38,204 nucleotides of DNA from Jimgerdemannia flammicorona (taxonomy: Eukaryota). Numbering within the stretch: position 1 is the stretch's first letter; the number at the start of each line of letters is the position of its first letter. Where the stretch lies: contig RBNJ01000166.1 of the NCBI GenBank assembly GCA_003990765.1, positions 1 to 38,204 on the forward strand, read 5' to 3'. Of this stretch, positions 14,849 through 38,204 are shown piece by piece. Made by a program: the position numbers and the translations under genes. The notes under the pieces were generated by a model. The model did not search any database. It had not been told where the DNA came from and saw nothing but the letters and a program-made list of their open reading frames with translations.

Positions 14849-17800
14849 ATGGATATGAGACCACCAGTATTCTATGGATATACCTCAGATGAATCAATTA
14901 TCACCTTCATTGATGATTTTGAGCAGTATGCTACTGTAAGGACCCTGACAGCAGCACAGCAAGTAGCCCTCATGCCCTTCAGCCTACAAGGTCCTGCTAG
15001 AGCAGTATTCACAGCTGCAACCCATGCAGGAAATGATGCCAATGCTATACTGACAGCACAGAAGACCTGGCTCTGAAATACATATTATATAGATGAGATC
15101 AAGCAACCCCTGAAGGATCAGCTCAATACAACATACTAAGAAATGAGTGAGGATCTAAATACATTCTATACCAGAATTCGATATCAGATAGTCCTTGCAG
15201 ATTATGCTACTGCTATCCGAGATCAAGTAGCCGAAGCAACCTTCATAAAAGGAGTCTATCCAGAAATAGCCATGGCTATCTGCTCATCACCAGTGATTCT
15301 GGATCTGCTACAAAAGGTCACCTATGCTCAGCAATACTGGATAGCCAGACACCCACAAGACCATACAATGGAGAGAGTTACAGGAGTTAGAATTGAGACA
15401 CCTAAGTCAACCAGTGTAATCCCTACCACAATGATCAATTGAAACACACCTCAGCCCAAAGCTACAGAGCAGCAAAAGAATAGTGACCCTTTGGAGGAAC
15501 TTACCAAGAGATTCATGGAAATGACTACCCACTTGAGAGATGTGGTAAAGGAAATTCAAGGAAGAGACTACCACCCTGTTCAGAAGTTTGCCGCCACCTC
15601 AGACAAGAAGAAAGGTACCTGCTATAGCTGTGGAGAAGAAGACCACTACTCATATGAATGTATGAGTGAAACTAAGCATAAGGCCCAATCAAGCAATGCT
15701 GCTAGAAATAAGGAATAGGCCAATATAATCACCTTTGAAGAAATCAGAGTATCCAATGAAGAGGAATGAGAGGCCTATCCTGCTCAGACCATCAAGAAGG
15801 ATATTCGTAAAGAACCCTACAAGAGACCACCAGGAAGACTCAAGAAGAACCCAGTGGAAAAGCAGATGGAAACTGCTACAGAAAGCCAAGCTGAAGAGAT
15901 GGACCAAGATATGGAGCTGGAGCAAGCAGTTCAAGATATCATCCAAGGAACCACTCCAGCCAGTGAAGAAGAAAAAGAAAAAAAGCTTCACAAGACTAAG
16001 ACCTTCAAGTATGATATCTTCAAGGACCTCCGTCAACAAAAGGTCAATGCAACCTTTGGTCAGCTCACAGAAATCCCAACATTCAGACAGCAAATGAGGT
16101 TTGGACTTGCCGAAACAACTAAGGAACAAGGATGGAAGATAACTGAGGCCAATATCATTCAAGAGGACTCAGGAGAAGAAAGTGAAGACAATCGCAAAAC
16201 CTCCACCTATGCTATCTGCCAGATCGAGGACTGAGTCTTTAAAGCCATTATCGATACAGGAGCAGGAGAATGTCTCATCACTAAGAAAGCAGTAGACCAC
16301 CTAGGCTGGGAGATAGAAGAAGCCACCAAATTGGTATTTGTTATAGCTGATAGAACATGAGCAACACCTCTGGAAAGGATCTGGGATGTACCCATCAAGT
16401 TTGGAGAAGTCATCATTCTGGTAGATATTATTGTCACTAATGCAACCAACTATTATATGTATCCTCATTAGCAATCAATGGCTTCACAAAGCCAAGGCAA
16501 TGATCAATCTCAGTGCACAGAAGATGCAAATCATCTACTGGGGAAAGAAGGTCAGAATTCCCATTAATGTCCACAAAGGAGTCCACCCTGAGATAGAGGA
16601 AGAGCAAGAAGAAGAAACCTATATGGTTACCACAAAGAAAGGAAAAGATAAGCAGTGGATAGAGGAAGAATGGTACAAAAGGATTGCAGACAGATACACC
16701 CCACTAGGCAGGTGTCCCTATGGTGAAAGAATATACTGTGCCCAGCACTTGGATCGCTGCTACTCCTGCATCATCAAAGTGAAAAAGATCTCCAACAAGC
16801 CAAAGAAGAACCAGGAGAAACTAGAAGATGGACCACCAGAGCTATTGAATGACAGCAATGATGAAGAAGACATCACAGTCAAGATATGAAGGATTCACTC
16901 CAATGCAGTCTTACCACAGTACAAATCAGAGAATACAGCAGGAATAGACCTATCTACTACAACATACACAATCCTCAAACTGCAAACCACTACTATGCTG
17001 GGAATAGGAATCGAAGTAACCATCCCACCAAATCATGTTGGAATCCTCAAGACAAGGAGTAGCTTGGCAAAAAGTGAAATATCCATAGAAGGAGGAGTCA
17101 TTGATTCAGACTATATAGGAGAAATCCTCCTCCTCATTAGGAATCATAATCCAACAATCCCATTTGAAGTAAAGAAGAAGGATCGGCTGGCACAAATGCT
17201 CATCCTACCTGTCCTTAACCCAAGAATCAAGGAAGTCACAAACATCAGACAAACTCAGTGAGGAAGAGCTGGATTCGGCTCTACAGGAAGAGAAGTCCTT
17301 GTAGCAACCAAGATTACAGAATTGGAGCACAAGAAGGAGAAAAGCCAAGACAAATACACTTATATAATTGGAAAGAACTTTCCCCTCAGGAAGGAGTTAC
17401 AGAACCTCTTGCATACATTTGAAGATATACTGGCCACAGATTTCAAGGACATCAAGACCAAGAAACCCTTATACTATCATGATGTCAATACTGGAGATGT
17501 GAAACCAATTTATCAAAAAGCCCACTCTATTCTGCCAGTATACAGGGAATGGCTCAAGACTGAAATTAAGGAAATGGAGGAATCCAGTATTATTAAGGAA
17601 GCCAGCAGCCCTTGGTCTTCACCTATTGTCCTTATACCAAAGAAAGGAAGCCAATCAGGAGAATTTTCACCAAGACTCTGCACAGACTATAGAAGACTCA
17701 ATGAGGTCACAGAGAAGGATAGACAACCATTGCCCAACATTGGTGACATTCTTATCATGCTGAGAAATGAATCACAATTTTACATCACTTTGGATCTGTT

Positions 17801-19994
17801 CTCAGGATTCTACCAAATTGACCTTATATCTGAAGCCAAAAGATCAGCCTTCATCACTCCTGATAGAATCTATGTTTATCTCCACATGCCCTTTAGAATG
17901 TGCAATGTACTAGCAAGCTTCCAGTAAATGATGAATAGCATCTTCAAGGATATTATGGAAAAATGGATGATGGTATATGTGGATGATGTGATCATCTTCA
18001 GCTGAATAGCCAAGGAGCACTTGGAATATATTGAAGAAATCCTCAGAAGGCTTCGCAAAAATAGCCTCTACATTAAGCCCAAGAAATGCAAATTTGGAGA
18101 AGAAGAAATCACATACCTCAGACATATCATCAATCACAAAGGAATACACACAGATCCCACAAAGATCAAGGCAGTAGCAGTATATCTGGTACCTACCAGT
18201 GTCACTGAAGTCTGAGCCTTCATGGGACTAGTATCCTATTACAGGAGATTTATTTGAAGATTCTCCTACATTGCCAGCCCTATCTACAATCTGTTCAGAA
18301 AAGAGGTCAAGTTCCAGTAGACACAACAATAGCAACTAGCCTTTGATAAACTCAAGATCAGGCTGACCCAGGCCCCAATCTTGAGAAGACCTGACTAGAT
18401 ACAAGAATTTATTCTACAGACAGATGCCAGTGCAATGGGACTTGGAGCTGTCCTTGCATAGAAGAAGAATGGCACTGAGTATATAATAGCCTATCTCAGC
18501 CAAGGTACTTATGGAGCAGAGCAGTCCTATGAGTTATATAAGCTAGAATGTCTTGCAGTCATCTGGGCTGTAGAGAAGTTCCACTATTACCTAACAGGCA
18601 GATACTTCACCATCCAGACAGACCACTCAGCACTCACCTGGTTGCTTACCACCAGTGAACCCAAAGGAATCTATGCCTGATAGATCATGAAGCTGCAAGC
18701 ATATGATGCCACAATCACTCACCATCCCAGAAGAACCAATGCCAATACTGATGCCCTCTCACAGACACTCCGAAGGACCCCACCCCCACAAAATCACCAT
18801 GAATAGAGAGCTGTACTATGGAATCATCAGCTATCTGGGGTAGCAAAAGATGCCCCCACATCTGGAAGAATAAATAAAAACAATTATTAATCGGACATAG
18901 AAACAATTCAAAACTGATGGAGAAATACTCAAGAAAGGACAACAATTAGTCATCCCTGAGCACCAGAAGAATCAAGTAATGAAAGAAGTACATGAACAAG
19001 ACCACATAGGAGGAACAAATACATATGACAAAGCAAGAAGGACTATGTGGTGGCCTGGAATGGAAGAAGATATCAGACAATTTGTCAGAACCTGTGACAA
19101 ATACCAGAAACAGAAACAAGACCAATGAAACCAGACCCCAGGATCAGTATGCATAGAACTAGTACTATTTGCCCACATAGCAATGGATATAATTGGCCCT
19201 CTACCCTTGACCCTGACTGATAACTGATATATCATTGTCATCATAGACCTTTTTATAAAGTGGATAGAAGCAGGACCCCTCAAGGAAGCCAATGTACAGT
19301 CAATCGCTGATTTCTTCTACAAGGAATCATCTGCCGGTTCAAGACCCCAATACAAGTAACTACAGATAGAGGAACAGAATTTGTGAATCAGCTCTTTGAG
19401 GTTCTCTACAAGAAGTACAAGATCCAGTACATTCAGACCACAACCTATCACCCCCAAGAAAATAGACAAGTAGAAAGGACCAATAAGACTCTCAAGAATG
19501 TTATCACTAAGATCTGTGATAACTATGAAAACTGAGATCACTATCTGCCAATAGCATTATCCACTCTCCAGGATATCCAATCATAAAGTACCCACTTTAC
19601 CCCTCAAGAAATGCTGTTCAGAGAAGAATATTCTCAGGGAACCCTATCATCTAATGGAGATGCTGTATGGAAATATGTGGATATGGAAATATGGAGACTA
19701 TACCAAATCAGGAAGAAGGCTGAGGATTACATAACTAAGGTGCAGACACTACAACAGAGGAATGCAGAAAAAACCCACCTAGAGATTATCAAGATAGGAG
19801 ACAAAGTCCTAATGTATTAGAATATAATAGAAGCTTCATGGTTATGAAAACTGGAGCCCAAGTGGGAAGGACCTTACCTTGTGCAAGATATAAAAGGGAC
19901 CACCTTTTGGCTATGAAAACTCTCAGGCACAATCATCCCCACTACTATCCACCGAAACAGACTTAAGAAGTACCATGACCAGCCAATGAAGTAA
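14849..19994 (+). pseudogene. gag-pol polyprotein, degraded
   Basis: RPPVFYG Gag start; CYSCGEEDHYSYEC knuckle; AIIDTGAG protease; SPWSSPIVL, CTDYRRLN, LDLFSGFYQI, VYVDDVII (RT); LQTDAS, LECLAVIW, TDHSAL (RNase H); HEQDHIG..CDK, TDRGTEF, YHPQEN (IN). Many TGA/TAG stops from C>T. Confidence 0.95.
16870..17290 (+). other. dUTPase domain between protease and RT
   Basis: All five motifs: TAGIDL, RSSLA, GGVIDSDYIGE, RLAQ, *GRAGFGSTG. Confidence 0.92.
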
Positions 19995-20499
19995 TGCAGC
20001 TACCCTCAAGATCACCAGTGCTGCCCAATGAGCCATAGAGAGACAATGGTGTTCTACTGAATCACCAACAATGGAGGAATCCTTTGATAGTATACAAAGT
20101 ATAGTCCAGACCCACCTATTACAAATTTTGCACTTCAAAGCCTACCAGATATGAACTGAGTTTCAGAAATACTTCAAGCTAGAACAACTACTGAATTCAA
20201 ATCTGAAGATGGGGAAAGAAGACTGGATTAAAGAATGTTAGCTCACCTATATTCAGATTATGATCACTAAGAGAGTGTACAAATTATTCAAAGATGATGA
20301 GTCAGCTCTAGCTCATCTTCAAGAAGTAATCCTAGGAGATTTTGGACAGGTTAGGAGACAATATTGGAAGAACGTGATGGCGCAAATTGCATAGTACAAG
20401 GAGATACAGATCATAGAAGCCTGGGAGTTTGAGTGAATAGGATACTTCAGGGATGAATCACCTATTCAGGAGGAAGTTGTGATGGTCAATCCGAATTAA
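19975..20499 (+). pseudogene. Extra ~174-aa ORF after integrase, running through the PPT into the 3' LTR; product unknown
   Basis: One frame of 175 codons from ATG 19975 to TAA 20497-20499, with no frameshift. All six internal stops are TGA or TAG, revertible to CGA/CAG. Confidence 0.6.
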
Positions 20500-20962
20500 T
20501 AACATGAATTAGGGGAATTAGACATTTGATCGCAGTATCTGAATTCAATTCCCAATATAGCTTAGCCTTACAAATAGCAGTCATATTTTACAAGTGTAGA
20601 AATTTTAACATTCATAGAAACTTTGACAACTGTAGAAATTCTACAGATGTAAATCCTTCACAATCATAAAGATTCTGGCAGATATAGAGAATTTACACTT
20701 ACTGACTCACAGAAAATGTAGTTATAACTTAGCCACCTTATAGTTAGCAAAACTTATATAAATAACCCAGTATCTTAGAGTGAATAAACCTCAAATCGAA
20801 ATAGTTCAAAGCAAAGAGATAGCAAAGGAACTAGTAAGCCTACAGGCAGATACACTTTGAACTCATCCACCCTCCCCTGCAACTTCAAGAGACTCTGCAA
20901 GAGTCAGAACAGTCAAGTTTTCAAGATACATACTTTTAAGAGTAAGCATCTGCTACATTACA
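20478..20962 (+). repeat. 3' LTR of family C
   Basis: TGTGATGGTCAATC...CATTACA. Confidence 0.93.
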
Positions 20963-21210: not shown

Positions 21211-23377
21211 TCTCTTTTTATATTAGTTTAAAAATAAAAAATTCTATATCTTAGTTACAATTCTGAGCTCACAAATATAGTTTATAAATACTTCTGCAAT
21301 ATTTTCTCTAGAGTAAGGACTCTCAAGCTTTATAAAGTCAAGAGTAAGAGTTTGAAGCTACCAATTGGAATCAATCTAATATTCAGTAATACTAAGAAAT
21401 GAAATAATATTGGGAAATATCTAGATATCAATTATAAATGAAATTTTACCTATAATAATTACTAATATTTTATCTAAAGCTTTTGATGAAGATTATTATA
21501 TTCTTTTTTATAAGTCTCCATAATATATATTATTATGAATAGTATCAATACTTGGGGTATATAAATTAGGCTTGAGAAGACTAAAGAGACTTTATAAAGA
21601 AGTACTCTCAATTGCTATAAATAATTAATCATTATATATAATCTAATAAACAAGTCAATTTTGAAACTCTAGAGCAGAATATAGCTAAATTGAGGGGGGT
21701 TTTTTTTAAGTATAAAAGATATATTTTCAAATTTATACTAAAATAAAAAGGAGATCACCTACTTACTATAGCTGAAATATTAATTTTACTTAATACTATA
21801 TTTAACTCTATTTTATCTGAATATTGGGCCTTTATATATTTTATCATATTTGTTATAGAACAACTATATATTTTATATTTCTGCCTATATTTTAAATTTT
21901 TTATATTTATATCAAATAAACTATAAATATATTCAATATATAAGTATACAACCTCCAAGCCACTGAAATCACATATTACTCTCAGAACTAATTTGGAAAC
22001 TACATGTGAGACTACAAAACAAATTACTGAAGAGATCACCTAGTTATACAAAATATACTAGTAAGTATGAGAACTTACTGTTAAGACACAAGAATACTAA
22101 AAGAAGTACTATAATCATAAGACTAACCCTGAACCTCTATAACTAATTTTGGTATACTATACTATTACAAAAGGAAACTGAAGTACCAAACTCAAACCAA
22201 GATGAGAAGAACCTTATCTCATCTATCAAAGGTTTACAAACTATACTTATCAACTTAAGACCAAGATATACTATAACTATATAAGACCTTATTACTTAGT
22301 AAAAGTAAAATACATTTGAATAACTTCATTTGCTCTATTTATATCACCTCTATTAGAGGATGACAAATGCTTCATCTAAACTCAAGAAAGCCAACATTAT
22401 TGAAACCAATCTCAAGCCTATCTACATAATAGATATTATAACTAGAAATTACCTCAGATTATAGAAAATATCATTTCCAAGAGGTTTGAACCCCCAGCTA
22501 TGACAATGAGAGCCCTCATCCTAGACAAGAATAGCTAGTTCTTACAAATATACCAGCAGTCTAAAAAAAAAAAAAAGAGAACTAAGATCTGTTATTCTTA
22601 TACAATCATTACTACTGAGAATAGCTTTAATTTTGCAAGAGACAGAAGTGATAATATCTTTGAAACTAATGATATCAGAAGTCAGAAAACTGCTCAGACC
22701 TTATTAAAGATGATGTCATCAATAATGATATCATCAAAGACAACCAAGACAGTATCTAAATCTATAGATAGTCTAGTAGTTATTAGCATAGTTAGATTAG
22801 CCTTGTATGATGTAACTGTGAACTGACTCAGCAAGGCACTAAGTACTACATCTATATTTAACATAGTCTAGATAACCTCCTACTAGTATAAATATCCCCT
22901 CCCCCAGATCTCAGAATCTCAGACTCAAATAGGCAAGAACAACTCCTGAACACTTTCTCACAATATTCCTTCACATAACTACTTCTAGTATAGTAATATT
23001 ATAAATAGCAAATAAATCTATTTAATAACTCACAAACCACTCTTAAGTAAATCTGCTTCCCATTAAGTCTCACTCCTAACCATATTATGAAATTTCCTAA
23101 TTGGGTATTGTCTACAGTAATACACCAATTCAACTAAGCTGGTCTTAGTTTCTTAAACTTCCTGAAATATAGAAAATCCTGAATATCTAAAACTAGTCCA
23201 AATAAGAACTTTGGTTGAGATGTCAACCTGATCTTGAAATTAATAAGTGTAGAGGATATACTCTATATGAAATTAATCTTGACCTAAAAAAAACCATCTT
23301 CCAGAATATCCAGAACTTCCAGAAAACTCTTTCAGAACTATGTAATAGTTACCCTAATAAGTAACCCTCTTATAACT

Positions 23378-23389
23378 TGGTAGCAGTGG
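23378..23389 (+). promoter_or_regulatory. Primer-binding site TGGTAGCAGTGG, probably for initiator tRNA-Met
   Basis: 3 nt after the LTR end. TGGTAGC is complementary to the GCTACCA 3' end typical of tRNA-iMet. Confidence 0.65.
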
Positions 23390-26300
23390 TTTATAATCCA
23401 ATTCCACTTCAAGATACTTCCTTACCCTACTATAAATCCCTCTGAAAATTCCTACAAGTTGGTATAAAGCCCAACCTCTGAACTGGAATTTATCCTAAAC
23501 TATCTGATAATCTGAAGAGAATTAAATCTGACATATAAGGACAATTTGACCTCCACATCTGCAACAAGTGGGACAGACTTCATTTATAAAAAGAAGTACT
23601 TCAATTAAATCAGCAGATAGGCCAAACTCTATTTACTGATCTCCTTGCTCTATACCCCACAAGTTAAGATGAAGAAGGTCTTATAGAAGCCTTCTTTATT
23701 CTTCTCAATGAGAGTTTTGTCAGCTCTATAAATTTGAGCAATCTAGGACAACCAGCAGTAGTCTTTCTAATCTTAGTTCTTTATAAAGCCCAAGCCTCCA
23801 TAGCCAAGTAGCTCAACTCTACCAACTTTCACTATACCAAGACCAAGACCACCTTATACTACCACTTCCAGAATTGCAAGGCCTACTATATTCTTAAAGA
23901 AAAAGAGAAATTCTTCATCAATAATCTGACCCTGAACCAGAAGCAGGTCTAGCTACAACTCTATCTAAAACCAAGATCAATACTGAACTAGGATCTGACT
24001 TTAAATTAAGTCCATCTGAAATCTGATATATCTGATTCTGTCTACTTCAATGCCAAGCAAACCCAACTATATGGAGATCAAACTGAAGAGAAGGAGGAGT
24101 ATCTTAGTGAATTCAATTCTAAATATACTACTGAAGACATATCTCTATCAGAACAGAACATACCTATACAGCAATAGACAGCTATCTATTGAGCCCTCAC
24201 TTCAGACTCACAACTATTACTCCAGTAACTTACACAGACCCAAAGAACACCATCACACTCTGCACCAGTACCTCAAGTAGTTTCAGTAATACTACTACCA
24301 ATAGTCCAATGGCCTTTAGTAAACAATATGACAAATCAATAGATTCTAGACCTTACAGCCCAGGTAGCCATAATGGCAGCAATCATTACTATCTTAGCTA
24401 AACAGACCTGACTAATAAAAAATCTGAGTCTACCTATCTTCAATGGTACTGTACAAGAAGTCTAAAGCTTTATTAGTATAGTTGATACCAACTTTGAAGC
24501 CAACCAATAGACCAACAAGTGAGTTGCTGACTATCTTTTAATAAACAATTAAGACCACACTCTGGAATAACTCTTTGCTATTACTATGGCCTACATCTAT
24601 TGAGTTATTATATTCTTCTGAGAACCCACTGAAGAATAGTGACAAACCCTTCCTAAAAAAACCCCTTACATAGGACACCTGACCTGTAGTTGTCCAAAAT
24701 GCAACAAATAATACTCCAGGATATAGAGTCCATTCTGTAGCTGGACTCAAATAACTCATGATTACTCAATACTATGGTGAAACTATGATTACTGAATCTT
24801 AAGTTAAACTCTATAACTTCAAGTTTGATATATATAATAAGAAAGAATTCAAAACCTTCTGTACAAAACTCAAGTCACTCTTGAATACTGTTGGCCTAGG
24901 ATATATTACCAATAATGAAGTATGAAATAGTACAAGAGTAGACTATTTATTTGATATACTATCTGAATGGCTTATAAGAAAATCTGAGAACAAGGATGCC
25001 CAGTTAGTTGTGATTATCAATAATGATGCCTGGTAAGAATCAAGACTATGGTCAAGTAAATCCTAACAGCTAGACCAATTCTGCCTTGAAGACAATTCAA
25101 CAACAAGGAAAAAACTTAGACTAAGAAAGAAGAACCCAAGTATAAAATATCCCAAGCTCTCTCTATATCCACCTCATAGACACCCAGAAATCCTAAACCT
25201 ACCCAGCCAAGTACCTTCAAAAAACTCACTGAAGGAGAAAGAAATGAACTTTAAAGAAGCAGAGCATGCTTCTATTGCTAAAAGACAGGACATATAACCA
25301 GTGCCTACCCTAACTAAAAACCCTGAACAGCAATATGAGCAACTATTATCACCCTGTACTACCTCAACAATCTGATTACTAAGACATTAGACTTTGTTAA
25401 ATTAAGACCAACTGCCAAGGCCCCAACTAAAGAAAGTTAAAAGGCAGCTGGATATGACCTATATACAGCTAAATAAACTATAGTTTTTAACTGAGAAGTC
25501 AAGCAAGTCTATATAGAGATTAGCATCCAGATTCCTAAAGAATATATTGAAAGAATATGCTATCACAGCAGCCTAGCACTTAAAGAATTCTCAGTAGAAG
25601 GAAGAGTCATTGACAAAGATTATATAGGTGAAATCATTGTCCTCATCTAAAACCATAGTTGGATACTCTTCAAGATCTCTATTGGTTTTTGTATCACCCA
25701 GATCCTATTTGAGAAAATTGAATCAACTTTAATAGTCAAAAAAGTCCCTAAACTACTACCTACCATCTGAGGATCTAAAGGATTTGGCTCATTAAACAAG
25801 GCTCCAGTCCAATCTACTATAAGTAAAGAAGAATAATTCTATAAGAAAATTGAAGATGGATTTATACCAAGTGGCTGATACCCCCATGGTATTAGAATGT
25901 ACTCTTTCTGAATGATCAATGATTACTTCTCTTGTGGCTTAAAGAAAAACCAATAGAAGGAAAGCTCCTACCACTAAAATCACTATCATTGGATCAAACA
26001 AACTGCTTACACTTCAAGCTTTTATTAATAGAGCACCTATTAAGATTATGATAGACAGTAGTATCTCAGACAACTTCATTAATGAAGAAATAGCCAACAG
26101 ACTCAAGGTTCTGACCTCTCTAGTACAACAGACTCAAGCAATTACTATAGCTGATAGAACTTCTCATATTGTTAGCAAGGAAGATCTATCTTTTCAAATT
26201 GGTGACTATCAAGTATATGTTATCCTCCAGATTATACCACTTTTGGATAATGAAATCATCCTTGAGACCCCATAGTTAAAACAAGAGAACTTTATGATCA

Positions 26301-26700
26301 ATTGGGTAAACCATTCTCTGACTATCAAGAAAGGATACCACAATTTCAAATTATAAGGCAAAAAAGACCCACTCAATTCTAGTGACCCTAGATCAAAGAT
26401 CACTTATATCAATAAGCTATAGCTCAAGAAATTGGCCAAAAAATACCCTCTTTTTGCCATCTCTATCTACTCATCCAAAGAAGAACCCAAGAACTCTGAA
26501 GAAGACTTTTCCAAAGTTGATAGCTGTATTAGACCCCTACTACAGAAATTCTGAGATATATTCCTAAACTGAACTGTAAAACCACCTGTATCTATCATTA
26601 TTAATAACTAAGAAGAATACAAAGTTGAATAAATCCTCAACAAATACAGTCACAAGAACCATCCAAATGATATAACAATACTAGATCAAATTAGAAGACC
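23380..26700 (+). pseudogene. Gag-dUTPase-protease-chromodomain remnant (copy 2)
   Basis: CFYC*KTGHITSA near 25267-25310. dUTPase AAGYDL...GSKGFGS at ~25385-25795. MIDSSISDNFI protease at 26048. PPVSIIINN*EEYKVE*IL chromodomain start at ~26580. Confidence 0.85.
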
Positions 26701-27215
26701 TTGATAAGAATATCGAAAGCTAAGAAGAAGAGAGTTGTAAGCACACAACCTCTAAGTTATCAAAATCACATATCACTCTCAGAACTAATTTAGAAACCAT
26801 ATGCAAGACTACAAAATAAGTTACTGAAGAGATCACCTGATTACACAAAATATACCAGTAAGTACAAAAACCTACTACTAAGATATAAAAATACCAGAAG
26901 AAGTACTATAACCATAAGACTAATCCTAAACCTCTATAACTAGTTTTGGTATACTATACTATTACAAAAGGAAACTGAAGTACCAAACTCAAACTGAGAT
27001 ATATCTCATCCATCAAAGGTTCATAAACTATACTTATTAACTCAAGATCAAGATATACTACAACTATATAAGACCTTATTACTTAGCAGAAGCAAAACAC
27101 ATTTGAACAACTCTATTTACTCTATCTGTATCACCTCTATTGGAGAATAATGGATACTTTATCTGAACTCAAGAAAGCCAATATTATTGAAACTAATCTC
27201 AAGCTCATCCATATA

Positions 27216-28272
27216 TATAAGCACACAACCTCCAAGCCACTAAAATCACATGGTATCCTCAGAACTAATTTAGAAACCACATGCAAGACTACAAAACAAG
27301 TTACTGAAGAGATCATCTGGTTACACGAAATATACCAGCAAGTACAAGAACTCACTACCAAGATACAAGAATACTAGAAGAAGTACTACAACTATAAGAC
27401 AGACTCTGAACTGCTATAACTAGTTTGGTGTACTGTACTATTACAAAAGAAAACCAAAAGTACCAAACTCAAATTGAGACAAGAAGAACTCTATCTCATT
27501 TACCAAAAGATTTATGAACTGCACTTATCAACTCAAGACCAAGATACACTGCAACTATATAAGACCTCATTACTTAGCAGAAGCAAAATGCATTTGAACA
27601 ACTCTATTTGCTCTATCTATATTACCTTCATTGAAGAGTGACAGATGTTTCATCTGAACTCAAGAAAGCTGACATTATTGAAACCAGTCTCAAGCCATCC
27701 ATGTGACAGATATTACTACTAGAAATTGCCTTGGATTACAGAAAATATCATTTCTGAGAGGTTTGAATCCCCAGCTGCAATATTGGGAGCCCTTGCCCTA
27801 GACGAGAATGGCCAGTTCTCACAAATGTGCCAGCAGACCAAAAAAAAAGAGAACCAAGATCTGTTATCCTTGTACAACCACTGCCACCAAGGATAGCCTT
27901 AATCTTGCAAGAGATAGAAGTGATGACACCTTGAAACTGATGATGTCAGAAGTCAGAAAACTGCTCAGACTTTGCCAGTGATGATATCATTGATGGTGAT
28001 GTCATTGAAGACTACCCAGACAGTGTCTAAACCTATAAATAGCTTAGCAGTCATAGTATAGTTAGATTAGCCTTGTACAATATAACTGTGAACTAACTCA
28101 GCAGTCAGACAATCTCTTAACATATCAGATCACACTTGTACTATATGACTGCATTCCAACTCAGTAAGGTACTTAGTGCTATATCCATATTTAGCATAGT
28201 CCAGATAGCCCCTCACTAGTATAAATACCCCCTCCCCCAGACCTCAGAATCTCAGACAAACAGACTTGAACA
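27216..28272 (+). repeat. Family-A LTR nested in the 3' LTR of copy 2, truncated by the LINE
   Basis: The LTR start (TATAAGCACACAACCTCCAAGCC) restarts at 27216, about 480 bp into the previous LTR, and follows the LTR consensus to CTTGAACA at 28272. Confidence 0.85.
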
Positions 28273-28330
28273 TCTTTCTCCACTACAATTCACGTTATAC
28301 ATACTTTACAACACACTTTCAAGTCATTTA

Positions 28331-30385
28331 TTGGAGAAAGTTATTAAGGAAATATCGACCAGCAAGCAAGCTGATGCGCATACTAGGTCAGGCAGACCTG
28401 GGGCCTTCAACTGGCAGTATGTTGGGAGAGGGTATGGACTGGGGATAGGGTCTTTTGGTGGCTCAGGTGGGCAGGACAGCTTGGGGAGTGGAAGTGGCAC
28501 TGGTGGGGGGGCTGAAAGACAGTAGAGAAGGAGCTTTGCAGACACGCTGAGGGCTGGGGGTTGGCCAGCAGGATCCCGTGGTGGTCAGGCAGGAGGGAAG
28601 GGGAAGCAGAAGAATGGGGCTGATGTGGGAGCTGGGCCTTCACCAGGGAGAGGTGGTGGAAGTGGAGCTGCCACTGGGGGTAGTGGTGGGACTGCTGATG
28701 GTGGTGTGATGGCGAATCAGGAGAAAAAAAGAGATGTGATGGCTGATGGCCAGGGGGGGCAGGGGTTCCCAATATGGAAGGGGGACCTGGCTGATAGTGT
28801 AATAGGGCTGGCAGTGGCCCCATTGCTCAAGAAGTCAATTTCGGAGTTTGTGGTCACCTTGTGCTTCCAGGGCTTGGCAGTGATGGTGAGGATGGTTCTG
28901 GGGCTGATTTTGAAGCAGGTGGAGGGGGCAGCCTTGGTGAAGTTCTTGAAGGGCTTGGAGGGGGTTGAGGTGGGTTTTGAGGAAGCAGGCCCACTAGATG
29001 AGGCCCTGAAGACTGAAGTTGTGGTTGGAGAGGTGGTGGTATCCATGGTGTGGTGCTTGAGGTGGGACCCCAGGGTGGTGCAGCTCCTAGTGAGGGGGGT
29101 GCCCATGGTGACTAAGGAGGAGACTAGGAAGAGGGTGGAGGAGGTGATGGTAGAGTGCGGTGATGTGGTGGACATAGGCTTTCAGGTGTGGGAGGGGACC
29201 ATAATCAGGATGGGCAATATCAATGTCAGGATTTGGCTGGCAGGCAAGGAGGCCACAGGGAAGGCGAGTGACTAGCCTTCGGTGCTGATGTAGGGAGCTG
29301 TCGTCTGCAAGATGTCCAGGGTGAAAGGGAGTGAAGAGGAGGAGGAGGACTTGTTGGAGGCACTGGAGGAGTTGGGTGGTGCTGTGGAGAGGAGAGTGAA
29401 GGCCTGGAAACTGTTTGAGAAGTTGATGCATCTGAAGGTTGTGGGTGGGAGGCATATCCGTATGGATAAGAAGCAGTGGGAGCGGGCCCAGAGATGCAAG
29501 AGGCAGAGGGAGCTATTGGCTAGTATGACAGATAGGGGGAAGAAGACGTTGGGTGAAGTTGTGGAGTCTGGAGGTATTAAGGCCAGTGTCTGGGCTGGTA
29601 AAGGAGGAGAGGAGGTGGAGGCGAAGGAGACAGGGGCTGGGAAGAGGATAGACAGGGACCCATTTGCTGATGGTACCTTCGAAGTATGGGAGCCAGAGCT
29701 AGATACAACCCCCCCCCCACTTATCAGAAGGGGCCCAGTGGGGAAGAGAGGGATGACGGAGGATACAAGGATGCAGGGGGCCCAGCAGGTGCGCTTTGGG
29801 GTCCCTGATGTGGCACAAGGGGGTCAGGTGGTGGTGATTGGCAAGGATGAGCTGGTGGATGTCCCTGAGGAGGAGTGGGGTGAGGCTGCTAGTATAGGGG
29901 CTGACACCACAATGTTGGATGCAGGGCAACTGGGGACTCTGGGAGGGAAGGAGGTAGGGAACTTGTTGTGGATGTGCAAGGTGATGGACAATCTCACAGC
30001 AGAGGTGTTGGGGGAGGTTGACCTGCAGGCGATGCCTGAGGAGCATTGGGCAAAAATTCTGCATGGTGATGGAATGGTGGAGGCACTGAAGGTGGAGATT
30101 CTGGCGATTTTGCTGGAGGAGGAGGGATATGAGGTTGATGAGGTGAGGAAGGCAGAGCTGGCGGTGGTCGCTGGTGAGCAGGCAGACTACTGTTGGACAG
30201 AGTGTCATGGTCTGTGGCTCTGGCAGGAGGCCTGTCTGGAGTATCGCGAGGACTTTGAGGAGCGTGAAGATGGGGTGATGGTAGAACTTCTGGGTGAGTT
30301 GGAGGCATAGGAAGCTGGAGAAAGGGAACTGGCTGCTGAACATGACTTGGACTTGGTACAGGAGGAGCAGGATGCAGACTTGTAG
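28331..30385 (+). pseudogene. LINE ORF1 (Gly-rich N-terminus, RRM-like core, acidic C-terminus)
   Basis: ORF pieces at 28331, 28625 and 29312 share one frame ending at TAG 30383-30385. LLVRGVP...EEVMVECGDVVDI resembles the ORF1 RRM-like domain. Confidence 0.7.
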
Positions 30386-30959
30386 AGGACAGAACCCCCA
30401 TATATATTATTATTCTTTATGAACAGTACAATCAATATTTTCTCCTTGAATGTGAATGGGCTAAGGGGCTCTGAGTGGTGTAGGAACATTTTTACTTAGC
30501 TCAAGGGATTGGAGGCTGATCTCTTTTTATTGTAGGATGTTCGGTGTGAGGATGAGGACGATCGGGTAGAGTGGACTAGAGAATGGGGGTGTAAGCGCAC
30601 AACCTCCAAGCCACTGAAATTACATGTCACCCTCTGAACAAGCCACCGAAATTACATGTGACCTCTAAACAAATCTGGAAATCACCTGCTTGATCACGAA
30701 GCTGAGTCAAACCGAAGTCACAGCGCACAAAAGCTGAGTCAATATGAAGTCATGGAACATAAGATTTATACAAACAGAATCTTACCAATCAGGACCAAAT
30801 GCATATATACCGAGCACTGAGATGCATCGAATCAGAGAACCAAAACAAATAACAACTACAACTTCCAAATACACAAATATGACCACTGAGATCTACAACT
30901 ATATCCGCGCTGACATTTGGAATGCCATTGTCAACTGAGCCACACCCCCTCTGCCCCTC

Positions 30960-33900
30960 ATGAATATCCATAGCCTAACACCCCTTTACTTCATGGAAGC
31001 CCGATGGAATGCCCTGAACATGCTTAGTGAGGCCCACCGAATCAGACAAATCTCAAGCTACTACCAGATTGGCCACCTCCTGGAAGACATGGTCGAACAC
31101 CACCATGATACAGATATTACCCAGATGTCTCAACACCAGAAGCTCATCGCCCACAAACATCGAGAACTCTTCTATGAGTATAATACCTTTATTCCCTGCC
31201 TCCGAGTTACTACCAGCGAAATGGTTGCTACCCTGTCCTATGGCCAAATCGATGACATGATACAAGAACTCAACCACAAGTACCTCGAATACATCCAGAC
31301 CACAGACAGAACCTTCCTGCACCCTGATGACTATATCCTGCAAATGCCTCAAGTCAGATATACTATGAAGGATGTCTATGATATAATCCACTTCGACGAA
31401 GATAAAGCAGAAGACAATGATCCCTCTGACGCCAACATGACCTCTAGCCAAGGATCTCTGCCAACCCTGATCACACCACCAAACTTGCTGATGAACTTGC
31501 AACAGTTCATAACTGCATATGAGACTTATTGGGACAATGACCACTGGCATGAATACCAACCCATATTCACCCCCGACTACTTCAACTACAATGAGGAGAC
31601 CAGAGAACACAACCTGTACCTCCAGACAACCCTCGAGATTGAACCAACCACTCCACCACCTGAGTACGAGCGATATGAACCACAGCTATAAGAGGGTTAC
31701 TTTTTAGAGTGACCGTTACATAGTTCTGGAAGAGTTTTCTAGAAGTTCTGGATATTCTGGAAGACCGTTTTCTTATGGTCAAGATCAATTTCGTATGGAG
31801 TACATCCTCTATGCTTATTGATTTCAAGATCGGGTTAATGTCTCAACCGAAGTCCTTTTCTGGACTAGTTCTGGATGTTCAGAATTTTCCATATTTCAGG
31901 AAGTTCAAGAAACTAAGACCAGCTTAGTTGAATTGGCGTATCGCTGCAGACAATACCCAATTAGGAAATTTCGTGACGGGGTTAGGAGTGGGACCTAACA
32001 GGGAGCGGATTTACTTAAGAGTGGTTTATGGGTTATGGAATAGGTTTATTTGCTATTCATGATATTGCTATACTAGGAGTATTTGTAAGAAGGGGTATTA
32101 TGGGGAAGTGCTCAGGAGTTGTGTTCGGATTGTTCAAGTCTGTTCAAGTCTGAGATTCTGAGGTTTGGGGGAGGGGGTATTTATACTAGTGAGGAGCTAT
32201 CTGGACTATGCTGAATATGGATGTAGCACTAAGTGCCTTGCTGAGTCGGAATGCAGTCACGTAGTACAAGTGTGATCTGACATATTAAGAGATCGTCTGA
32301 CTGCTGAGTCAGTTCACAGTTATGTTGTACAAGGCTAATCTAAGTATACTATGACTGCTAGGCTATTTATGGGTTTAGGCACTATCTGGGTAGTCTTCGA
32401 TGACATCACTATCGATTGCATCATCTCTGATGAAGTAGTCGTCTAGGAAGAGTGGTTCGTGGATTACTTCTCCTTGTTGGCTGAGGTAGTAATACATTGG
32501 GACTTCATCTCTATCCCACAGGATAGCATCGTCTGTTTCGTATGCTAGATAAGGTGTTGGTGGGCGAAGGATGGGTGTATTGTCTTTGCTTTCATCGGAT
32601 TCGCTGTCTGTGTACCTTCTATAGGTTACAGCACTATGAGTTGCAGGATTGTAGTAAGCTGGTGGCTGTGGTTCATGTCACTCATACTCAGGTGGTGGAG
32701 TGGTTGGTTCAATCTTGAGGGTTGTCTGAAGGTACAGGTTGTGTTCTCCGGTCTCTTCATTGTAATTGAAGTAATCGGAGGTGAATGCGGGTTGGTATTC
32801 GTGCTAGTGGTCATTGTCCCAATAAGTCTCGTATGCTGTTATGAACTGTTGTAAGTTCATTGGCAAGGTTGGCGGAGTGATCAGGGTTGGCAGAGATCCT
32901 TGGCTAGAGGTCATGTTGGCGTCAGAGGGATCATTGTCTTCTGCTTCATCTTCATCGAAGTGGATTATATCGTAGACATCCTTCATGGCATATCCGACTT
33001 GAGGCATTTGCAGGATGTGGTCATCAGGGTGCGGGAAGGTTCTGTCTGTGGTTTCGACATACTCGAGGTACTTGTGGTTGAGTTCTTATATCATGTCATC
33101 GATTTGGCCATAGGACAGGGTAGCAACCATTTCGCTGGTAGTGACTCGGAGGTGAGAAATAAAGGTATTGTACTCATAGAAGAGTTCTCAATATTTGCGG
33201 GTGATGAGCTTCTGGTGTTGAGACATCTGGGTAATATCTGTATCATGGTGGTATTCGACCATGTCTTCTAGGAGGCAGCCAATCTGGTAGTAGCTTGAGA
33301 TTTGTCCGATTTGGTGGGCCTCGCTAAGTATGTTTAGGGCGTTCCATCGGGCTTCCACGAAGTAGAGGGGTGCCAGGCTATAGATATTCATGAGGGGCAG
33401 AGGGAGTGTGGCTCAGTTGACAATGACATTCCAAATGTCAGCGCAGATACAGTTGTAGATCTCAGTGGTCATATTTGTGTGTTTGGAAGTTATGGTTGTT
33501 GTTTGTTTTGGTTTTCTGATTCGACGTGTCTTGGTGCTCAGTATATATGCATTTGGTCCTGATTGGTAAGATTCCGTTTGTGTAGATCTTCTTCATATTG
33601 ACTCAGCTTTGTGTGCTGTGACTTCGGTTTGACTCAGCTTTGTGATCAAGCAGATGATTTCCAGATTTGTTCAGAGGTCGTGTGTAATTTCAGTGGCATG
33701 TTCAGAGGGTGACATGTAATTTCGGTGGCTTGGAGGATGTGCGCTTACAACAGCTGCCAGCTTACTACAATTCTGCAACTCATAGTGCTGTAACCTATAG
33801 AAGGTACGCAGATAGTGAATCTGACAAAAGCGAAGACAATACATCCATCCTTTGCCCACCAACACCTTATCTAGCCTATGAGACAGACGATGCTATCCTG

Positions 33901-34044
33901 TGGGATAGAGATGAAGTCCCAATATATTACTACCTCAGCGAACAAGGAGAAGTAATCCGCAAACCACTCTTCCTAGATGACTACTTTATCAGAGATGATG
34001 TCATGGATGGTGATATTATTGAAGACTACCCAAACAGCGCCTAA
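30960..34044 (+). CDS. LTR-encoded hypothetical protein, 338 aa when 30960-31686 is joined to 33755-34044
   Basis: Removing the nested LTR and one TSD gives 1017 nt of open frame (...ERYEPQ|LPAYYNS...IEDYPNSA*). Disrupted at this locus by the insertion. An upstream ATG at 30879 is separated by a TGA at 30936. Confidence 0.7.
31687..33749 (-). mobile_element. Inverted solo LTR, family B (2063 bp), nested in its sibling
   Basis: Reverse complement of the host LTR. TSD ACAGC at 31682-31686 and 33750-33754. Carries a broken copy of the same ORF (~32376-33391). Confidence 0.92.
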
Positions 34045-34231
34045 ACCCATAAATAGCCTACAGTCATAGTATAGTTAGATTAGCTTTGTATGATGTGACT
34101 GTGAACTGACTCAGCAGTCAGACGATCTCTTGACATGTCAGATCACACTTGTACTACATGACTGCATTCTGACTCAGCAAGGCACTTAGTGCTACATCCA
34201 TATTTAGCATAGTCCAGATAGCTCCTCACTA

Positions 34232-34360
34232 GTATAAATACCCCCCCCCCAGACCTCAGAATCTCAGACTTGAACACACAAGAACATTCCTGAATACTTC
34301 CCCACAATATCCTTTCATACAAATACTCCTAGTATAGCAATATCATGAATAGCAAATAAA
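34232..34360 (+). promoter_or_regulatory. LTR TATA box (GTATAAATA) and AATAAA signal, conserved in the A/B LTRs
   Basis: CTAGTATAAATA(C/T)CCCC recurs at ~22884, 28216 and 34229, and on the - strand at ~6420, 11295 and 32177. AATAAA at ~34355. Confidence 0.6.
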
Positions 34361-37300
34361 TCTATTTCATAACTCACAAACTACTCTTAAGTAAATCCAC
34401 TCCCTATTAGGTCCCACTCCTAACCCTGTCACGAAATTTCCTAATTGGGTATTGTCTGCAGTGATATGCCAATTCAACTAAGCTGGTCTTAGTTTCTTGA
34501 ACTTCCTGAAATACGGAAAACCCTGAACATCCAGAACTAGTCCGGAAAAGGACTTTGGTTGAGACATCAATCCAATCTTGAAATCAATAAGCATAGAGGA
34601 TGTACTCCATATGATATTGATCTTGACCATAAGAAAACAGTCTTCCAGAACATCCAGAATATCCAGAAAACCTTTCCAGAACTATGTAACAGTTACCTTA
34701 AAAAGCAACCCTCTTACAGGGGGGGGGCTGCTGCTTGGTTTGGAAAGGTAGTGATTCTGGTGAGAAAGGGTAGAGGAGACTTGGGGGGAATCGGGAGTTG
34801 GGGCGATCGCTTGGTCTGGGGAGATTGGTATTGGCCAGGGTGGGAATCGGTGAAGGTGGGCTCTTACTACTGCCCTGCAGTTAGGGGTGAGAGAACTGCA
34901 TGGATTAGGGGGCTGCTGGAAGAGGGTATTCTCTTGGAGGAAGGGATCGATGTTCTCAGTGGGGACTTTAATATGGTTTGGGATCAGCATCTGGACAGAA
35001 CTGATGGAGGGAGGAGTGCTGGGGGTAGAAGTGGAGGTCTGGATACATGGGAGGAGGTGGAGACATTGAGCTCCTTGGGGGATATAGGCAGAACAAGGTG
35101 GGGTGACACCAGGGTCTACACACATTGGGTGAATGGCTTGGGCACAAGGATTGACTGGATTCTGACAGCAGAGTGTTGGAGTTCAGATGTTCGGAAGGTA
35201 TTGGAAGTGGAGTGGTGCCCATGGTCTGATCACTGGAGACTGTTGGGGCAGGAGCAGTTTGGGGGGAGTGGAGATGGACCTGGACATTGGTGCCTTAACT
35301 CCTCCCTGCTGGCTGAGAAGGGGTTGTGGAAACTGTGGGAGGAGGACATTCAGGCAAAAGTTTTTATCTGGAAGTGTGAGGGTTTGCCTGTGGCTGTCTG
35401 CTAGATGAAGTTGAAAGAGGCTGCAAGAGTTTATTGGGGAGGGGCTGGTAGAGAGGCTGGGAGGCAGAGAAGGAGGTGCACGAGGTATGCTTCCTACAGG
35501 CTGAGGAGACTACAAATAGATTGGGCAGATTTGCTCACTATTGTAGGGGTGGAGGATTGGAGGATAGAGAGGGTGAAATTGGAGATAGTGGAACTTCAAC
35601 AGGTGTTGAGGGAGGAGGAGGAGACTCATATGTGGGGCATGGCTGCTAGGCTGTGGTGGCAGGGACTTGAGGAGGGTGAGCGGCCTACTAGGTACTTATC
35701 ACGACTTCTCAAAGCTAGGAGAGTGCATCATCAGTGGGATGGGGTCCTGGATACTGATGGGGACATGGTATGCAGTATGCAACAAATCTTGGGGGTCTTG
35801 AAGGAGAGATGGCAGGGATTGTGGAGTGAGGGAGAAGGGGGTGCGGATGAGACAGAGATTGCAAATACACTAGACAAGTGGGGGCCGCCGCAGGTTGCTG
35901 GACTGGGTGACTTGATTTTACCAGTGCAGGGAGAGGAGATCCAGAGTGTCCTGGCTGCAACTAAACTTGGAATGACGCCAGGGGAGGATGGATTACTATG
36001 GGACTTCTGGAAGAAGATGGTTAATGTCCCCGGAGTTTTGGGAGAGATGGCTGCTCTTTGTGACCATGTCCTTCAGAGCAGCGAATGGGTTGGAGAGCAG
36101 CGAGTGGGTTGGAGAGCAGAATCTGGGGCTGGTGGCTTTACTGTACAAAGACAAGGGAAGGAGGGAAGACTAGAAGAACTGGAGGCTGATAATGCTTCTG
36201 GATATGGACAGGAAGATGGTGACTAAGGTGATTGTCACAAGGCTGCAGAAAGTTGCACAACAGGTGCTGGGGGAAGAGCAGCAGGGCTTTGTTGGGGACA
36301 GGCTAATAAGAGATGGGACTGCATGGGTTTATGGGGTCATTGAAGGGGCCCGGGCCTGTAGACTGGATGGAAGGTTGGTCTTTTTGGACCAGGAGAAGGC
36401 CTATGACCGTGTTCGGTGGGTGTGGCTGGGCAAGGTATTAGACCGAATTGGTGTCCCCCCAACATTTAGGGCCTCTATGCTGAGTCTGCTGGAGAGTAGT
36501 TGGGCAGCTCTGACATATAATGGTCACTGTGGGAGAGCATTTCCCTTGGGAAGAGGGGTTCCTCAGGGGGACCCTCTATCCCCGATTCTCTATGCCCTTT
36601 TGCTGGAGCTGTTGATGAATAGGATTTGCCAGAAGGTGGCAGGGCTCTCTATATATGATATAGTGTGGAAGGTGGGGGCCTTTGCTGATGATATGGTGAT
36701 TGGACTTGGGTCTGTGGCAGATGTGGAGGCACTTCAGGAGACTGTGAAATGGTATGAGGCTCACTCAGGGGCAAAACTCAACTGGCATAAGTGTGAGATG
36801 ATAGTGCTAGGGAATGGGCTAGTGGGTGGGGACATCATTGGAACAATTGTCCCTACTGGTGAGGTGGTGCGGTATCTGGACATCTTCCTATCTGTATATA
36901 GTTCTGTCTTGCCAAGAGTGTGGTGGGAGAACAGGGTGAATAGTTGGGGAGAGGCCCTTCAAGGTTGGGGAGGCTGCCATATCTCTCTAGCAGGGTGGGT
37001 GTCAATCCTGAATATATATTGGTTCCCAAAGCTGTGGTATATGGCATATTACCTCAACTTCTCAGCGTGGATGGTGAAGAAGCTGATGAAGGTGGCTAGG
37101 GATTGGATTTGGGCAGGAAGGAGATCCCAGGTCAGTTGGGATACTCTTGCAAGGCCGGTTGTCAGGAGAGGTCTTGGCCTGGTGGATTTTCCCAAGAGGC
37201 TGCACTGCTTGCAAGCCTGGTGGTTGAAGAGAGCTGTGAAATTGCAGGGCAGAGGTTGGGTGCCTCTGCTGCAGAAGGTATGGGAGATGCGAACATCCCC

Positions 37301-38204
37301 TCAAGGGTCCTCCAGGGATCTGCTCCCTTTGGTGGGGCTGACTGGAGTTTGAAGGCTGTGGTTCAAGGGCTTTTGGTGGGGAGTGGCTGATGGAGTACAT
37401 TGAATTGGCCTGCGCTGGCAAGGTAATGAGGGGGAGGCAGTGTGGGGGCCTAATATATGACATTGGGATAGACTGCTCCTGGGGGGTACTCCACTGGCTG
37501 CTTTTGATATCGGGGAGGGTGTAGAGTGTCAGCAGGGGCTGGGCCAGGATCTTTGGCCAAGTGGCTGGCAGGCAGTTGGAATCGGAGAGGAGCGGGACTG
37601 GGCAGGTATCTGGTCTTGGAGTGCAGAGGTACAGCAGTGGCTTCCTCCCAAGTTCTGGGTGGTGTGGTGGAGAATGTTGCGGAGGAATGTCATGCTGAAT
37701 TTCCACTCAGAACATTTAGTAGAGGGTGGACAATTTGACTGCGAGGAGTGTTACAATGTGGGGCAAGCTGGGGGTCATATACAGATGCTAGAACATTGGC
37801 TAGGGGAGTGTGAGGTGTTGGGGGAATTTTGAGCTGAAATAGGAGATAGGCTGGGTGTGGGGCGTCGGCTGGTATGGGAGGGGGGTCACTGGGAGGACTT
37901 AAGATCTCAACTTATGAGTGGGATGGGCGATAGTTGGCTCACTGTAGGGTGGGTGTTAGCAGTATGGGTGGGACTGGTGGGACATTGGCTTTTTGTATTT
38001 GAGGAAGGGCAGCAGTTGGGGCTGCGAGAGAAGGTGTTAAGGTGGGAGGAGCTGGTGGTGGATCTGCTGACTGGATGGTGGGTGGGTTGGAGTCCTCAGA
38101 GGGGACAACATCACAGTTTGGTGGTAAGGATCTGTGAGCAGAGTGGTGGGAGGATGGGGATAGTGTTCGACAAAGTGGTCTTTCATAGGGAAGGAGTAGG
38201 GGGG

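What the first reader, a model, noticed from the sequence alone, without database searches (positions are those of the whole stretch)
30590..34718. A 2-kb LTR that encodes a 338-aa protein in U3
Seen: a TG...CA solo LTR with TSD holds a stop-free 338-codon ORF upstream of its TATA box once the nested copy is removed. The protein is acidic and Tyr/His-rich and has PPxY motifs (PPPEY, plus PPAY in the inverted copy). Known: U3-encoded accessory genes occur in retroviruses (MMTV sag, HIV nef overlap), and PPxY binds Nedd4/Rsp5 WW domains. Inference: an unrecognised retrotransposon accessory protein, expressed from the 3' LTR and spread by every solo LTR.
Basis: partly seen in the sequence, partly recalled or inferred. 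Interest (0 to 1): 0.75.

Follow-up and report, generated by a model that had tools for sequence, protein, structure and literature searches.

The report
Protein gene inside a retrotransposon LTR
A very abundant fungal jumping gene carries, inside its terminal repeat (normally a non-coding control region), a real protein gene of unknown family that selection has preserved, a layout otherwise best known from mouse mammary tumour virus.

Summary
Confirmed and extended. Both window copies are solo LTRs (2.07 kb, 5-bp TSDs) of an abundant, autonomous fungal chromovirus (gag-dUTPase-PR-RT-RH-IN-chromodomain). The ORF is a selected gene: shared non-CpG/CpA variants give dN/dS 0.20 (gag 0.2-0.36; non-coding controls 1.0-1.4). 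An older subfamily gives 0.11-0.26. It has 0 indels against 11 outside it. Inserted copies decay neutrally: 2 of 30 are open. It has no Pfam or Atlas match and no confident fold; one distant homologue (66%) exists. The PPxY idea is weak: that homologue keeps 22 of 25 prolines and loses three of the four PPxY ones. An RT-less sister subfamily replaced the ORF yet multiplied, so the product is probably supplied in trans. TGAGTCA/TATA-like motifs before the ATG suggest a second U3 promoter, as for MMTV sag (inferred; no RNA data). Function is not shown; my best guess is a trans-acting regulator. The scan reported this kind of LTR gene before, on other pieces of this genome.

The parts
30590..31686 (+). 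Outer solo LTR, 5' part (U3 up to ORF codon 269)
   Evidence: begins TGTAAG; about 91% identical to the LTRs of whole element L031
33755..34718 (+). Outer solo LTR, 3' part (rest of ORF, main promoter, inferred R and U5)
   Evidence: ends CTTACA
30585..30589 (+). Target-site duplication GGGGG, left (right copy at 34719-34723)
31687..33749 (-). Nested inverted solo LTR of the same family, TSD ACAGC (31682-31686 and 33750-33754)
30879..34044 (+).
32375..33472 (-). U3 ORF of the nested copy, full length, 5 premature stops
30703..30741 (+). Two TGAGTCA sites (30703-30709, 30735-30741; AP-1/Gcn4-like, label recalled) inside a short direct repeat, upstream of the ORF
   Evidence: intact in 30/30 and 29/30 young copies, present in the old subfamily, absent from the first 800 nt of 29/29 sister LTRs
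30802..30809 (+). TATA-like CATATATA about 75 nt before the ORF ATG, followed by an A/C-rich leader (putative upstream U3 promoter, inferred)
31656..31667 (+). PPEY motif (codons 260-263)
   Evidence: absent from homologue P0003
34107..34113 (+). TGACTCA site upstream of the main TATA, shared with the sister subfamily
34233..34240 (+). Main TATA box TATAAATA
   Evidence: 30/30 young and 27/27 sister copies
34355..34360 (+). AATAAA, putative polyadenylation signal (end of R, inferred)
28526..37352 (+). Host LINE, split in its endonuclease frame by the outer LTR
   Evidence: (RVT_1 5.9e-27; Exo_endo_phos 4.8e-4, below the Pfam cut-off)
5966..12438 (-). RT-less sister element with 1.5-kb LTRs whose U3 middle is different (no 365-codon ORF)
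21936..28273 (+). Second RT-less sister element with 1.5-kb LTRs

Best explanation
SHOWN: the two window copies are dead solo LTRs of an autonomous fungal Ty3/gypsy chromovirus (about 10.6 kb; tRNA-Met PBS; gag-CCHC-dUTPase-PR-RT-RH-IN-chromodomain; PPT). Its 2.07-kb LTR carries a 365-codon gene that was under purifying selection in the replicating source elements, about as strongly as gag, and that decays neutrally after insertion (about 0.93 that it is a real gene). INFERRED: the LTR holds two promoters in tandem. An upstream one (TGAGTCA x2, TATA-like box, A/C-rich leader) makes a roughly 1.5-kb mRNA for this gene that ends at the LTR's own poly(A) signal; the downstream one makes the genomic RNA (about 0.55). 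INFERRED: the product acts in trans, because an RT-less sister subfamily lost the gene and still multiplied. GUESS: it regulates the element's own expression (activator or anti-silencing factor), with a helical N-terminal domain (1-175) and an acidic, aromatic- and proline-rich C-terminal half that resembles an activation or protein-binding region (about 0.35).
For: LTR status: 18 of 30 copies are followed by the PBS, 9 are preceded by the PPT, 2 are TSD-flanked solos and 1 is unclear. The PBS matches a host tRNA-Met(CAT) over 12 nt, counting the added CCA. Whole autonomous elements L106 and L107. Selection: 25 N / 64 S against 59 / 30 expected, omega 0.20, p 3.5e-13; non-coding pseudo-frames 1.09, 1.01, 1.43; shifted frames 2.6 and 1.9; all six ORF segments below 0.45. 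gag frame 0.19-0.36 in four windows. Old against young subfamily: omega 0.26 (transversions) and 0.11 (deamination-free transitions). 0 indel events in 1095 ORF columns against 11 in 985 outside. Neutral decay after insertion: nonsense CpG changes 30/180 against silent 148/810. Homologue P0003: 66% identity, 83% positives, in-frame gaps only. Derived loss: the sister is closer to the young subfamily (transversion distance 0.0105) than the ORF-bearing old one is (0.053); 10 of 10 sister 3'-LTR loci lack RT-RH-IN, while 21 of 22 testable 2-kb 3' LTRs lie behind integrase. Promoter motifs and no branch-point-like motif at LTR 102-289. MMTV has a U3 promoter P2 that drives sag (PMC9412291, passages).
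Against: No RNA, ribosome or protein evidence was obtained. The two 5' TGAGTCA sites lie in one short duplication, so the p of 0.003 overstates them. The 5' 288 nt are only marginally more conserved than R-U5 (p 0.06). An ATG at LTR 209 (29/30 copies) opens a 27-codon frame that ends on the ORF start, which would matter if transcription began further upstream. The U3/R boundary is inferred from motifs, not mapped. No homology or fold supports a regulatory role (Pfam 0 hits, Atlas blank, AlphaFold pLDDT 35 and 42), and no clear DNA-binding motif was seen. The copy samples are the best-scoring 30 of thousands of candidates, not random draws.
Confidence: 0.5

Rival explanations
1. A real accessory gene, but expressed as a spliced or read-through message from the 5' LTR promoter, using only the 3' LTR copy (as HIV nef, or env-like aORFs such as Bagy2).
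For: The ORF lies at the 3' end of the genomic RNA. Splicing is documented for sense aORFs (PMC7264820). Conserved AG dinucleotides occur upstream of the ATG.
Against: No branch-point-like motif at LTR 102-289. No intron-like joint in contigs of run X1 over LTR plus 1.5 kb (this stretch could not show a leader-to-3'-LTR splice). No spliced retrocopy among 43 loci aligned to the internal region. Promoter-like motifs come and go with the ORF.
Confidence: 0.25
2. The protein recruits Rsp5/Nedd4-type WW-domain ligases through PPxY motifs, for particle trafficking, budding or degradation of a host restriction factor.
For: Two PPxY motifs; two or more arise in 1.6% of shuffles. Codons in the old subfamily are compatible with both motifs, including a synonymous change at P260.
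Against: P0003 keeps 22 of 25 aligned prolines, and all 3 losses fall in the two PPxY motifs (PLSEY, PLAY), while 22 of 23 Tyr, 7 of 7 Phe and 3 of 3 Trp are kept. Segment 241-300 is among the less constrained (omega 0.33). No transmembrane segment (maximum 19-residue hydropathy 0.86). Caveat: each loss in P0003 could be a C-to-T change.
Confidence: 0.15
3. A structural or replication helper (particle or pre-integration-complex cofactor, nucleic-acid mimic, chaperone) rather than a transcription regulator.
For: Selection as strong as on gag. Lost together with RT-RH-IN in the non-autonomous sister. Strongly acidic.
Against: A separate reading frame with its own promoter-like motifs. A second chromovirus family in the same genome shows no homologue after its PPT, so it is not a general requirement.
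Confidence: 0.25
4. A captured host-gene or other-TE fragment, or a chance frame, carried passively in U3; or the selected frame is the antisense one.
For: The origin is unknown. U3 is exchangeable in this family. A 210-249-codon antisense frame is open.
Against: Passive carriage predicts omega near 1; found 0.20, 0.26 and 0.11. No longer or unrelated protein matches: 2 hits among 1.84 billion representatives, both this family; none among longer proteins. The open antisense frame has omega 1.77.
Confidence: 0.05

Closest known systems
MMTV sag/Naf ORF in U3 of the betaretroviral LTR (PMC9412291, passages)
   Same: A whole ORF inside U3, present in both LTRs; the paper reports a second U3 promoter (P2) that drives it; the virus also encodes a dUTPase.
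   Different: MMTV is a mammalian retrovirus and Sag is a membrane superantigen (recalled). This protein is in a fungal chromovirus with no env seen, has no transmembrane segment and no Pfam match. A likeness of layout, not kinship.
Additional ORFs (aORFs) of LTR retrotransposons: env-like Athila/Bagy2; antisense Grande gene23, RIRE2, Retand, Botrytis Boty (PMC7264820, main text read)
   Same: A conserved extra ORF in most copies of a family, no database homologue, proposed accessory or regulatory role; Grande gene23 has its own promoter.
   Different: The review places aORFs in the internal region, mostly between pol and the 3' LTR; it describes none inside the LTR. This one lies wholly after the PPT, in sense, and so is duplicated and left in solo LTRs.
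dUTPase-bearing fungal chromoviruses, e.g. PosPlaTy3-3 of Postia placenta (PMC2864245, passages)
   Same: Chromodomain integrase; dUTPase at the N-terminus of Pol.
   Different: The passages seen mention no LTR-borne ORF. A figure legend lists an 'add. ORF' of unknown function whose position I could not see (figure and supplements not read).
crapaud LTR subfamilies of Podospora (PMC10787394, passages)
   Same: A fungal chromovirus whose subfamilies differ by exchangeable U3 sequence.
   Different: LTRs of 339-443 bp; no U3 ORF in the passages seen.
Foamy-virus Tas/Bet and HIV Nef (recalled); VANC anti-silencing proteins of VANDAL transposons (search listing only)
   Same: Element-encoded trans regulators, some from an internal promoter or overlapping U3.
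   Different: No sequence similarity found; these are functional analogies only.

Membership tests
LTR of an LTR retrotransposon | TG...CA ends with short inverted repeat, 5-bp TSD | tested here: met
   (nested copy ends TA; L031 has TSD AAGGA)
LTR of an LTR retrotransposon | Direct repeats around an internal region, PBS after the 5' copy, PPT before the 3' copy | tested here: met
Ty3/gypsy chromovirus | Pol order PR-RT-RH-IN | tested here: met
   (L106, L107, L109)
Ty3/gypsy chromovirus | Chromodomain at the integrase C-terminus | tested here: met
   PF00385 3.7e-18; in frame with IN in L107
Ty3/gypsy chromovirus | RT phylogeny within a named chromovirus clade | not tested
   no reference RT set was held
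Conserved aORF of LTR retrotransposons | Present in most copies, conserved like gag/pol | tested here: met
   omega 0.20 against 0.19-0.36 for gag; in all 30 sampled 2-kb LTRs, absent from the 1.5-kb sister
Conserved aORF of LTR retrotransposons | Located in the internal region (mostly pol to 3' LTR) | tested here: not met
   starts 289 nt inside the LTR, after the PPT
env-like aORF | Transmembrane segment | tested here: not met
   maximum 19-residue Kyte-Doolittle mean 0.86
MMTV sag-type U3 gene | ORF wholly in U3 | tested here: inconclusive
   wholly inside the LTR and upstream of the conserved TATA and AATAAA, but the transcription start is not mapped
MMTV sag-type U3 gene | Sequence homology to Sag | tested here: not met
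   no Pfam family at E<=1 for the whole protein; no such hit
MMTV sag-type U3 gene | Expressed from a U3 promoter | not testable with these tools
   no RNA holder listed; motifs only
PPxY late-domain / WW-ligand protein | PPxY conserved across homologues | tested here: not met
   both motifs absent from P0003; compatible with retention in the old subfamily
PPxY late-domain / WW-ligand protein | Binds a WW domain | not tested
   complex prediction not run: a textbook pair would pass by likeness

The most novel reading that the evidence does not exclude
A fungal chromovirus has evolved a complex-retrovirus-like regulatory layer. Its LTR is a self-contained two-promoter cassette that encodes a new family of trans-acting activator or anti-silencing protein, which non-autonomous derivatives borrow in trans; young 5', 3' and solo LTRs could each express it.
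Probability: 0.25. Interest if true: 0.8.

Novelty: new variant of a known kind. Interest (0 to 1): 0.6.

Why it matters
LTRs are annotated as non-coding, so a selected gene inside one is missed by standard TE pipelines. It shows that a retrotransposon without a visible env has reached the layout of MMTV sag. It also gives a testable candidate for how a family with thousands of copies persists in a genome that heavily deaminates its repeats. The sister subfamily that dropped the gene is a natural comparison for cis against trans action. The protein family itself is new (one distant homologue among 1.84 billion representatives).

Tried and rejected
Expression: no RNA holder listed. Run X1 (contigs, kind unknown) holds the family and shows no intron-like joint; neither says anything on expression. 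Homology: Pfam, ESM Atlas whole and 1-175, phages, viral contigs, metagenome contigs twice, shorter proteins (only 30-69 aa were searched) and longer proteins gave nothing. A look-up of earlier findings by sequence was blank. Structure: AlphaFold pLDDT 35 (single sequence) and 42 (residues 1-175, 13 rows); fold searches were not run because such models give meaningless matches. A longer (about 410-aa) reading: the 47 in-frame codons upstream show no protein constraint (4 N / 1 S, low power) and upstream in-frame ATGs occur in only 9 and 10 of 30 copies. Antisense ORF rejected (omega 1.77). My first view that the family is RT-less (from L031) was wrong: L031 is a deletion derivative. Distant homologues in other gypsy families, reported by earlier notes: I could test only one other chromovirus family (22 of the 30 chromodomain loci), with no hit to its own LTR region; own-genome protein searches were swamped by this family. 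Self-priming instead of a tRNA primer: no complement of 9 nt or more in the LTR. The protein-selected copy set (omega lower still) is biased and not used as the main evidence. Literature: searches listed no report of a whole protein gene inside a fungal retrotransposon LTR; the library lacks most subscription papers, and supplements were not read.
Full report
1. Observation. The finding covers two solo LTRs of one family. The outer copy (30590-31686 and 33755-34718; TGTAAG...CTTACA; TSD GGGGG) sits in the endonuclease frame of a LINE. An inverted copy (31687-33749; TSD ACAGC) has inserted into it. Leaving out the nested copy, the outer frame is stop-free for 338 codons from 30960 to 34044. The family ORF is longer: 365 codons, from LTR position 289 (window 30879) to 1386. 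Both window copies have a premature stop at codon 20 that 25 of 30 sampled copies lack, and the nested copy has 5 stops. No simulation reached 365 codons (0 of 2000 at each of three Markov orders).

2. The element. A DNA search of the genome met 6067 first-look candidates and scored 40, nearly all full-length at 91-93%; candidates are not copy numbers. Of the 30 loci fetched, 18 are followed by a PBS, 9 are preceded by the PPT, 2 are TSD-flanked solos and 1 is unclear. The PBS matches a host tRNA-Met(CAT) over 12 nt, counting the added CCA. Whole elements L106 and L107 read gag-CCHC-dUTPase-PR-RT-RH-IN-chromodomain between two such LTRs: an autonomous chromovirus. 21 of 22 testable 3' LTRs lie behind integrase; L031 is a deletion derivative without RT-RH-IN. 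The host carries Chitin_synth_1 genes, so it is very probably a fungus. Copies decay by C-to-T change, mainly at CpG (19%) and CpA (7%); the two LTRs of L031 differ by 78 transitions and 1 transversion.

3. The ORF is a selected gene. In the 30 DNA-selected copies, variants shared by two or more copies outside CpG/CpA sites were 25 non-synonymous and 64 synonymous, against 59 and 30 expected by mutation class (omega 0.20, p 3.5e-13). Non-coding 3' pseudo-frames gave 1.09, 1.01 and 1.43, the shifted frames 2.6 and 1.9, and the open antisense frame 1.77; the closed-in-register antisense frame that shares third positions gave 0.24, as expected. All six segments of the ORF were below 0.45. The gag frame gave 0.19-0.36 in four 300-nt windows. 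The multiple alignment has no indel in 1095 ORF columns and 11 events in 985 columns outside (one search counted 12 against one reference). Non-CpG singletons gave about 0.5. Nonsense CpG changes (30/180) match silent ones (148/810), so selection acted on replicating sources, not on inserted copies; 2 of 30 copies are open, and 15 of the first 30 protein-selected ones. An older, heavily decayed subfamily (29 loci) carries the same ORF; deamination-proof differences from the young one give omega 0.26 and 0.11. These samples are best-scoring hits, not random draws.

4. Relatives. Only two proteins were found among 5.8 billion clusters and 1.84 billion representatives: P0003 (66% identity, 83% positives, 247 aa, unnamed) and P0004 (95%, 128 aa). 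Pfam, the ESM Atlas, phages, viral and metagenome contigs, and longer proteins gave nothing. AlphaFold was not confident (pLDDT 35 and 42) but placed helices in residues 1-175 both times. The C-terminal half has 41 D/E, 7 K/R, 26 aromatic residues and 22 prolines in 190. There is no transmembrane segment.

5. PPxY. Two motifs arise in 1.6% of shuffles, and the old subfamily's codons are compatible with them. But P0003 keeps 22 of 25 aligned prolines and all three losses are in the motifs, while 22 of 23 tyrosines are kept. The motif is therefore not a conserved feature of the family, although each loss could be a deamination.

6. Natural loss. A sister subfamily with 1.5-kb LTRs (two elements in this window; 4456 first-look candidates) shares the internal region, about 50 nt at the LTR start and everything from position 1325, including the last 19 codons. 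Its U3 middle is different, and its longest stop-free frame in 29 copies is 118 codons. All 10 sister 3'-LTR loci examined lack RT-RH-IN, most with the same junction as L031. The sister is closer to the young subfamily than the ORF-bearing old one is (transversion distance 0.0105 against 0.053), so the loss is derived. The gene is not needed in cis, which fits a product supplied in trans (inference).

7. How it may be expressed (inference). The shared 3' part has TGACTCA (1450), TATAAATA (1576) and AATAAA (1711), so the ORF lies in U3 if transcription starts near 1600. Upstream of the ORF is a similar set: TGAGTCA at 114 and 145, a TATA-like box near 212-220, an A/C-rich leader and A at -3. 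The TGAGTCA sites are kept in the old subfamily and absent from the first 800 nt of 29 of 29 sister LTRs. No branch-point-like motif lies at 102-289. This favours a second promoter inside U3, as reported for MMTV sag (P2; PMC9412291, passages). Against it: the two sites are one duplication, the 5' region is only marginally more conserved than R-U5 (p 0.06), a conserved ATG at 209 opens a short frame ending on the ORF start, and no transcript data were available.

8. Comparison. The layout is that of MMTV sag, without homology. The kind is the conserved additional ORF of LTR retrotransposons, but the review PMC7264820 (main text read) places those in the internal region. dUTPase-bearing fungal chromoviruses are known (PMC2864245, passages), as are exchangeable U3 regions (PMC10787394, passages). 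Eight literature searches listed no whole gene inside a fungal retrotransposon LTR; coverage is limited. Foamy-virus Tas, HIV Nef and the AP-1/Gcn4 label are recalled. This scan has noted the same kind of gene, and probably this family, on other pieces of this genome; those notes are not independent support.

9. Verdict. A real, selected accessory gene of a new family inside a fungal chromovirus LTR: a new variant of a known kind. Promoter and function remain inferred. Interest 0.6.

Noticed in passing
L031 2856-3757; L106 about 3385-4340: The gag frame is under purifying selection (omega 0.23-0.36) for roughly 260-300 codons upstream of its first in-frame ATG; a 1-nt polymorphism near codon 40 suggests a start after it. 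Non-AUG start or a spliced leader is possible.
   Followed up: partly
window 11620-12438 (-), 6620-7433 (-), 21936-22750, 27216-28030: The sister subfamily's replacement U3 reads like a frameshifted, basic coding relic that joins the last 19 codons of the ORF; only weak, patchy selection signal. Its origin is unknown.
   Followed up: partly
L031 6073-6079; sister loci L033-L058: An RT-RH-IN deletion, with short sequence overlap at the junction, is shared by a 2-kb-LTR element and the 1.5-kb-LTR subfamily; the latter also lost half the chromodomain and the 3' UTR but keeps gag-dUTPase-protease.
   Followed up: partly
window 14235-20962: A different gypsy element (about 500-bp LTRs, dUTPase-like stretch before RT) has a decayed ORF-like stretch between integrase and PPT, about 20030-20450; no similarity to the U3 protein by tblastn.
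   Followed up: no
window 11590-11690: One sister LTR (A5) contains an extra ~110-nt insert with a U6-snRNA-like stretch (resemblance recalled, not tested).
   Followed up: no
window 26736-28273: A sister-type LTR begins at 27216 directly after a partial LTR (26736-27212): a tandem or nested LTR, cut off next to the LINE.
   Followed up: no
L056, L059, L013, L092: Family LTRs are often inserted into other LTRs of the same family, as in the window, which suggests chromodomain targeting of repeat-rich chromatin.
   Followed up: no
LTR positions 209-292 (window 30799-30882): A conserved ATG (29 of 30 copies) opens a 27-codon frame whose stop overlaps the ORF start codon, a stop-start arrangement.
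   Followed up: no
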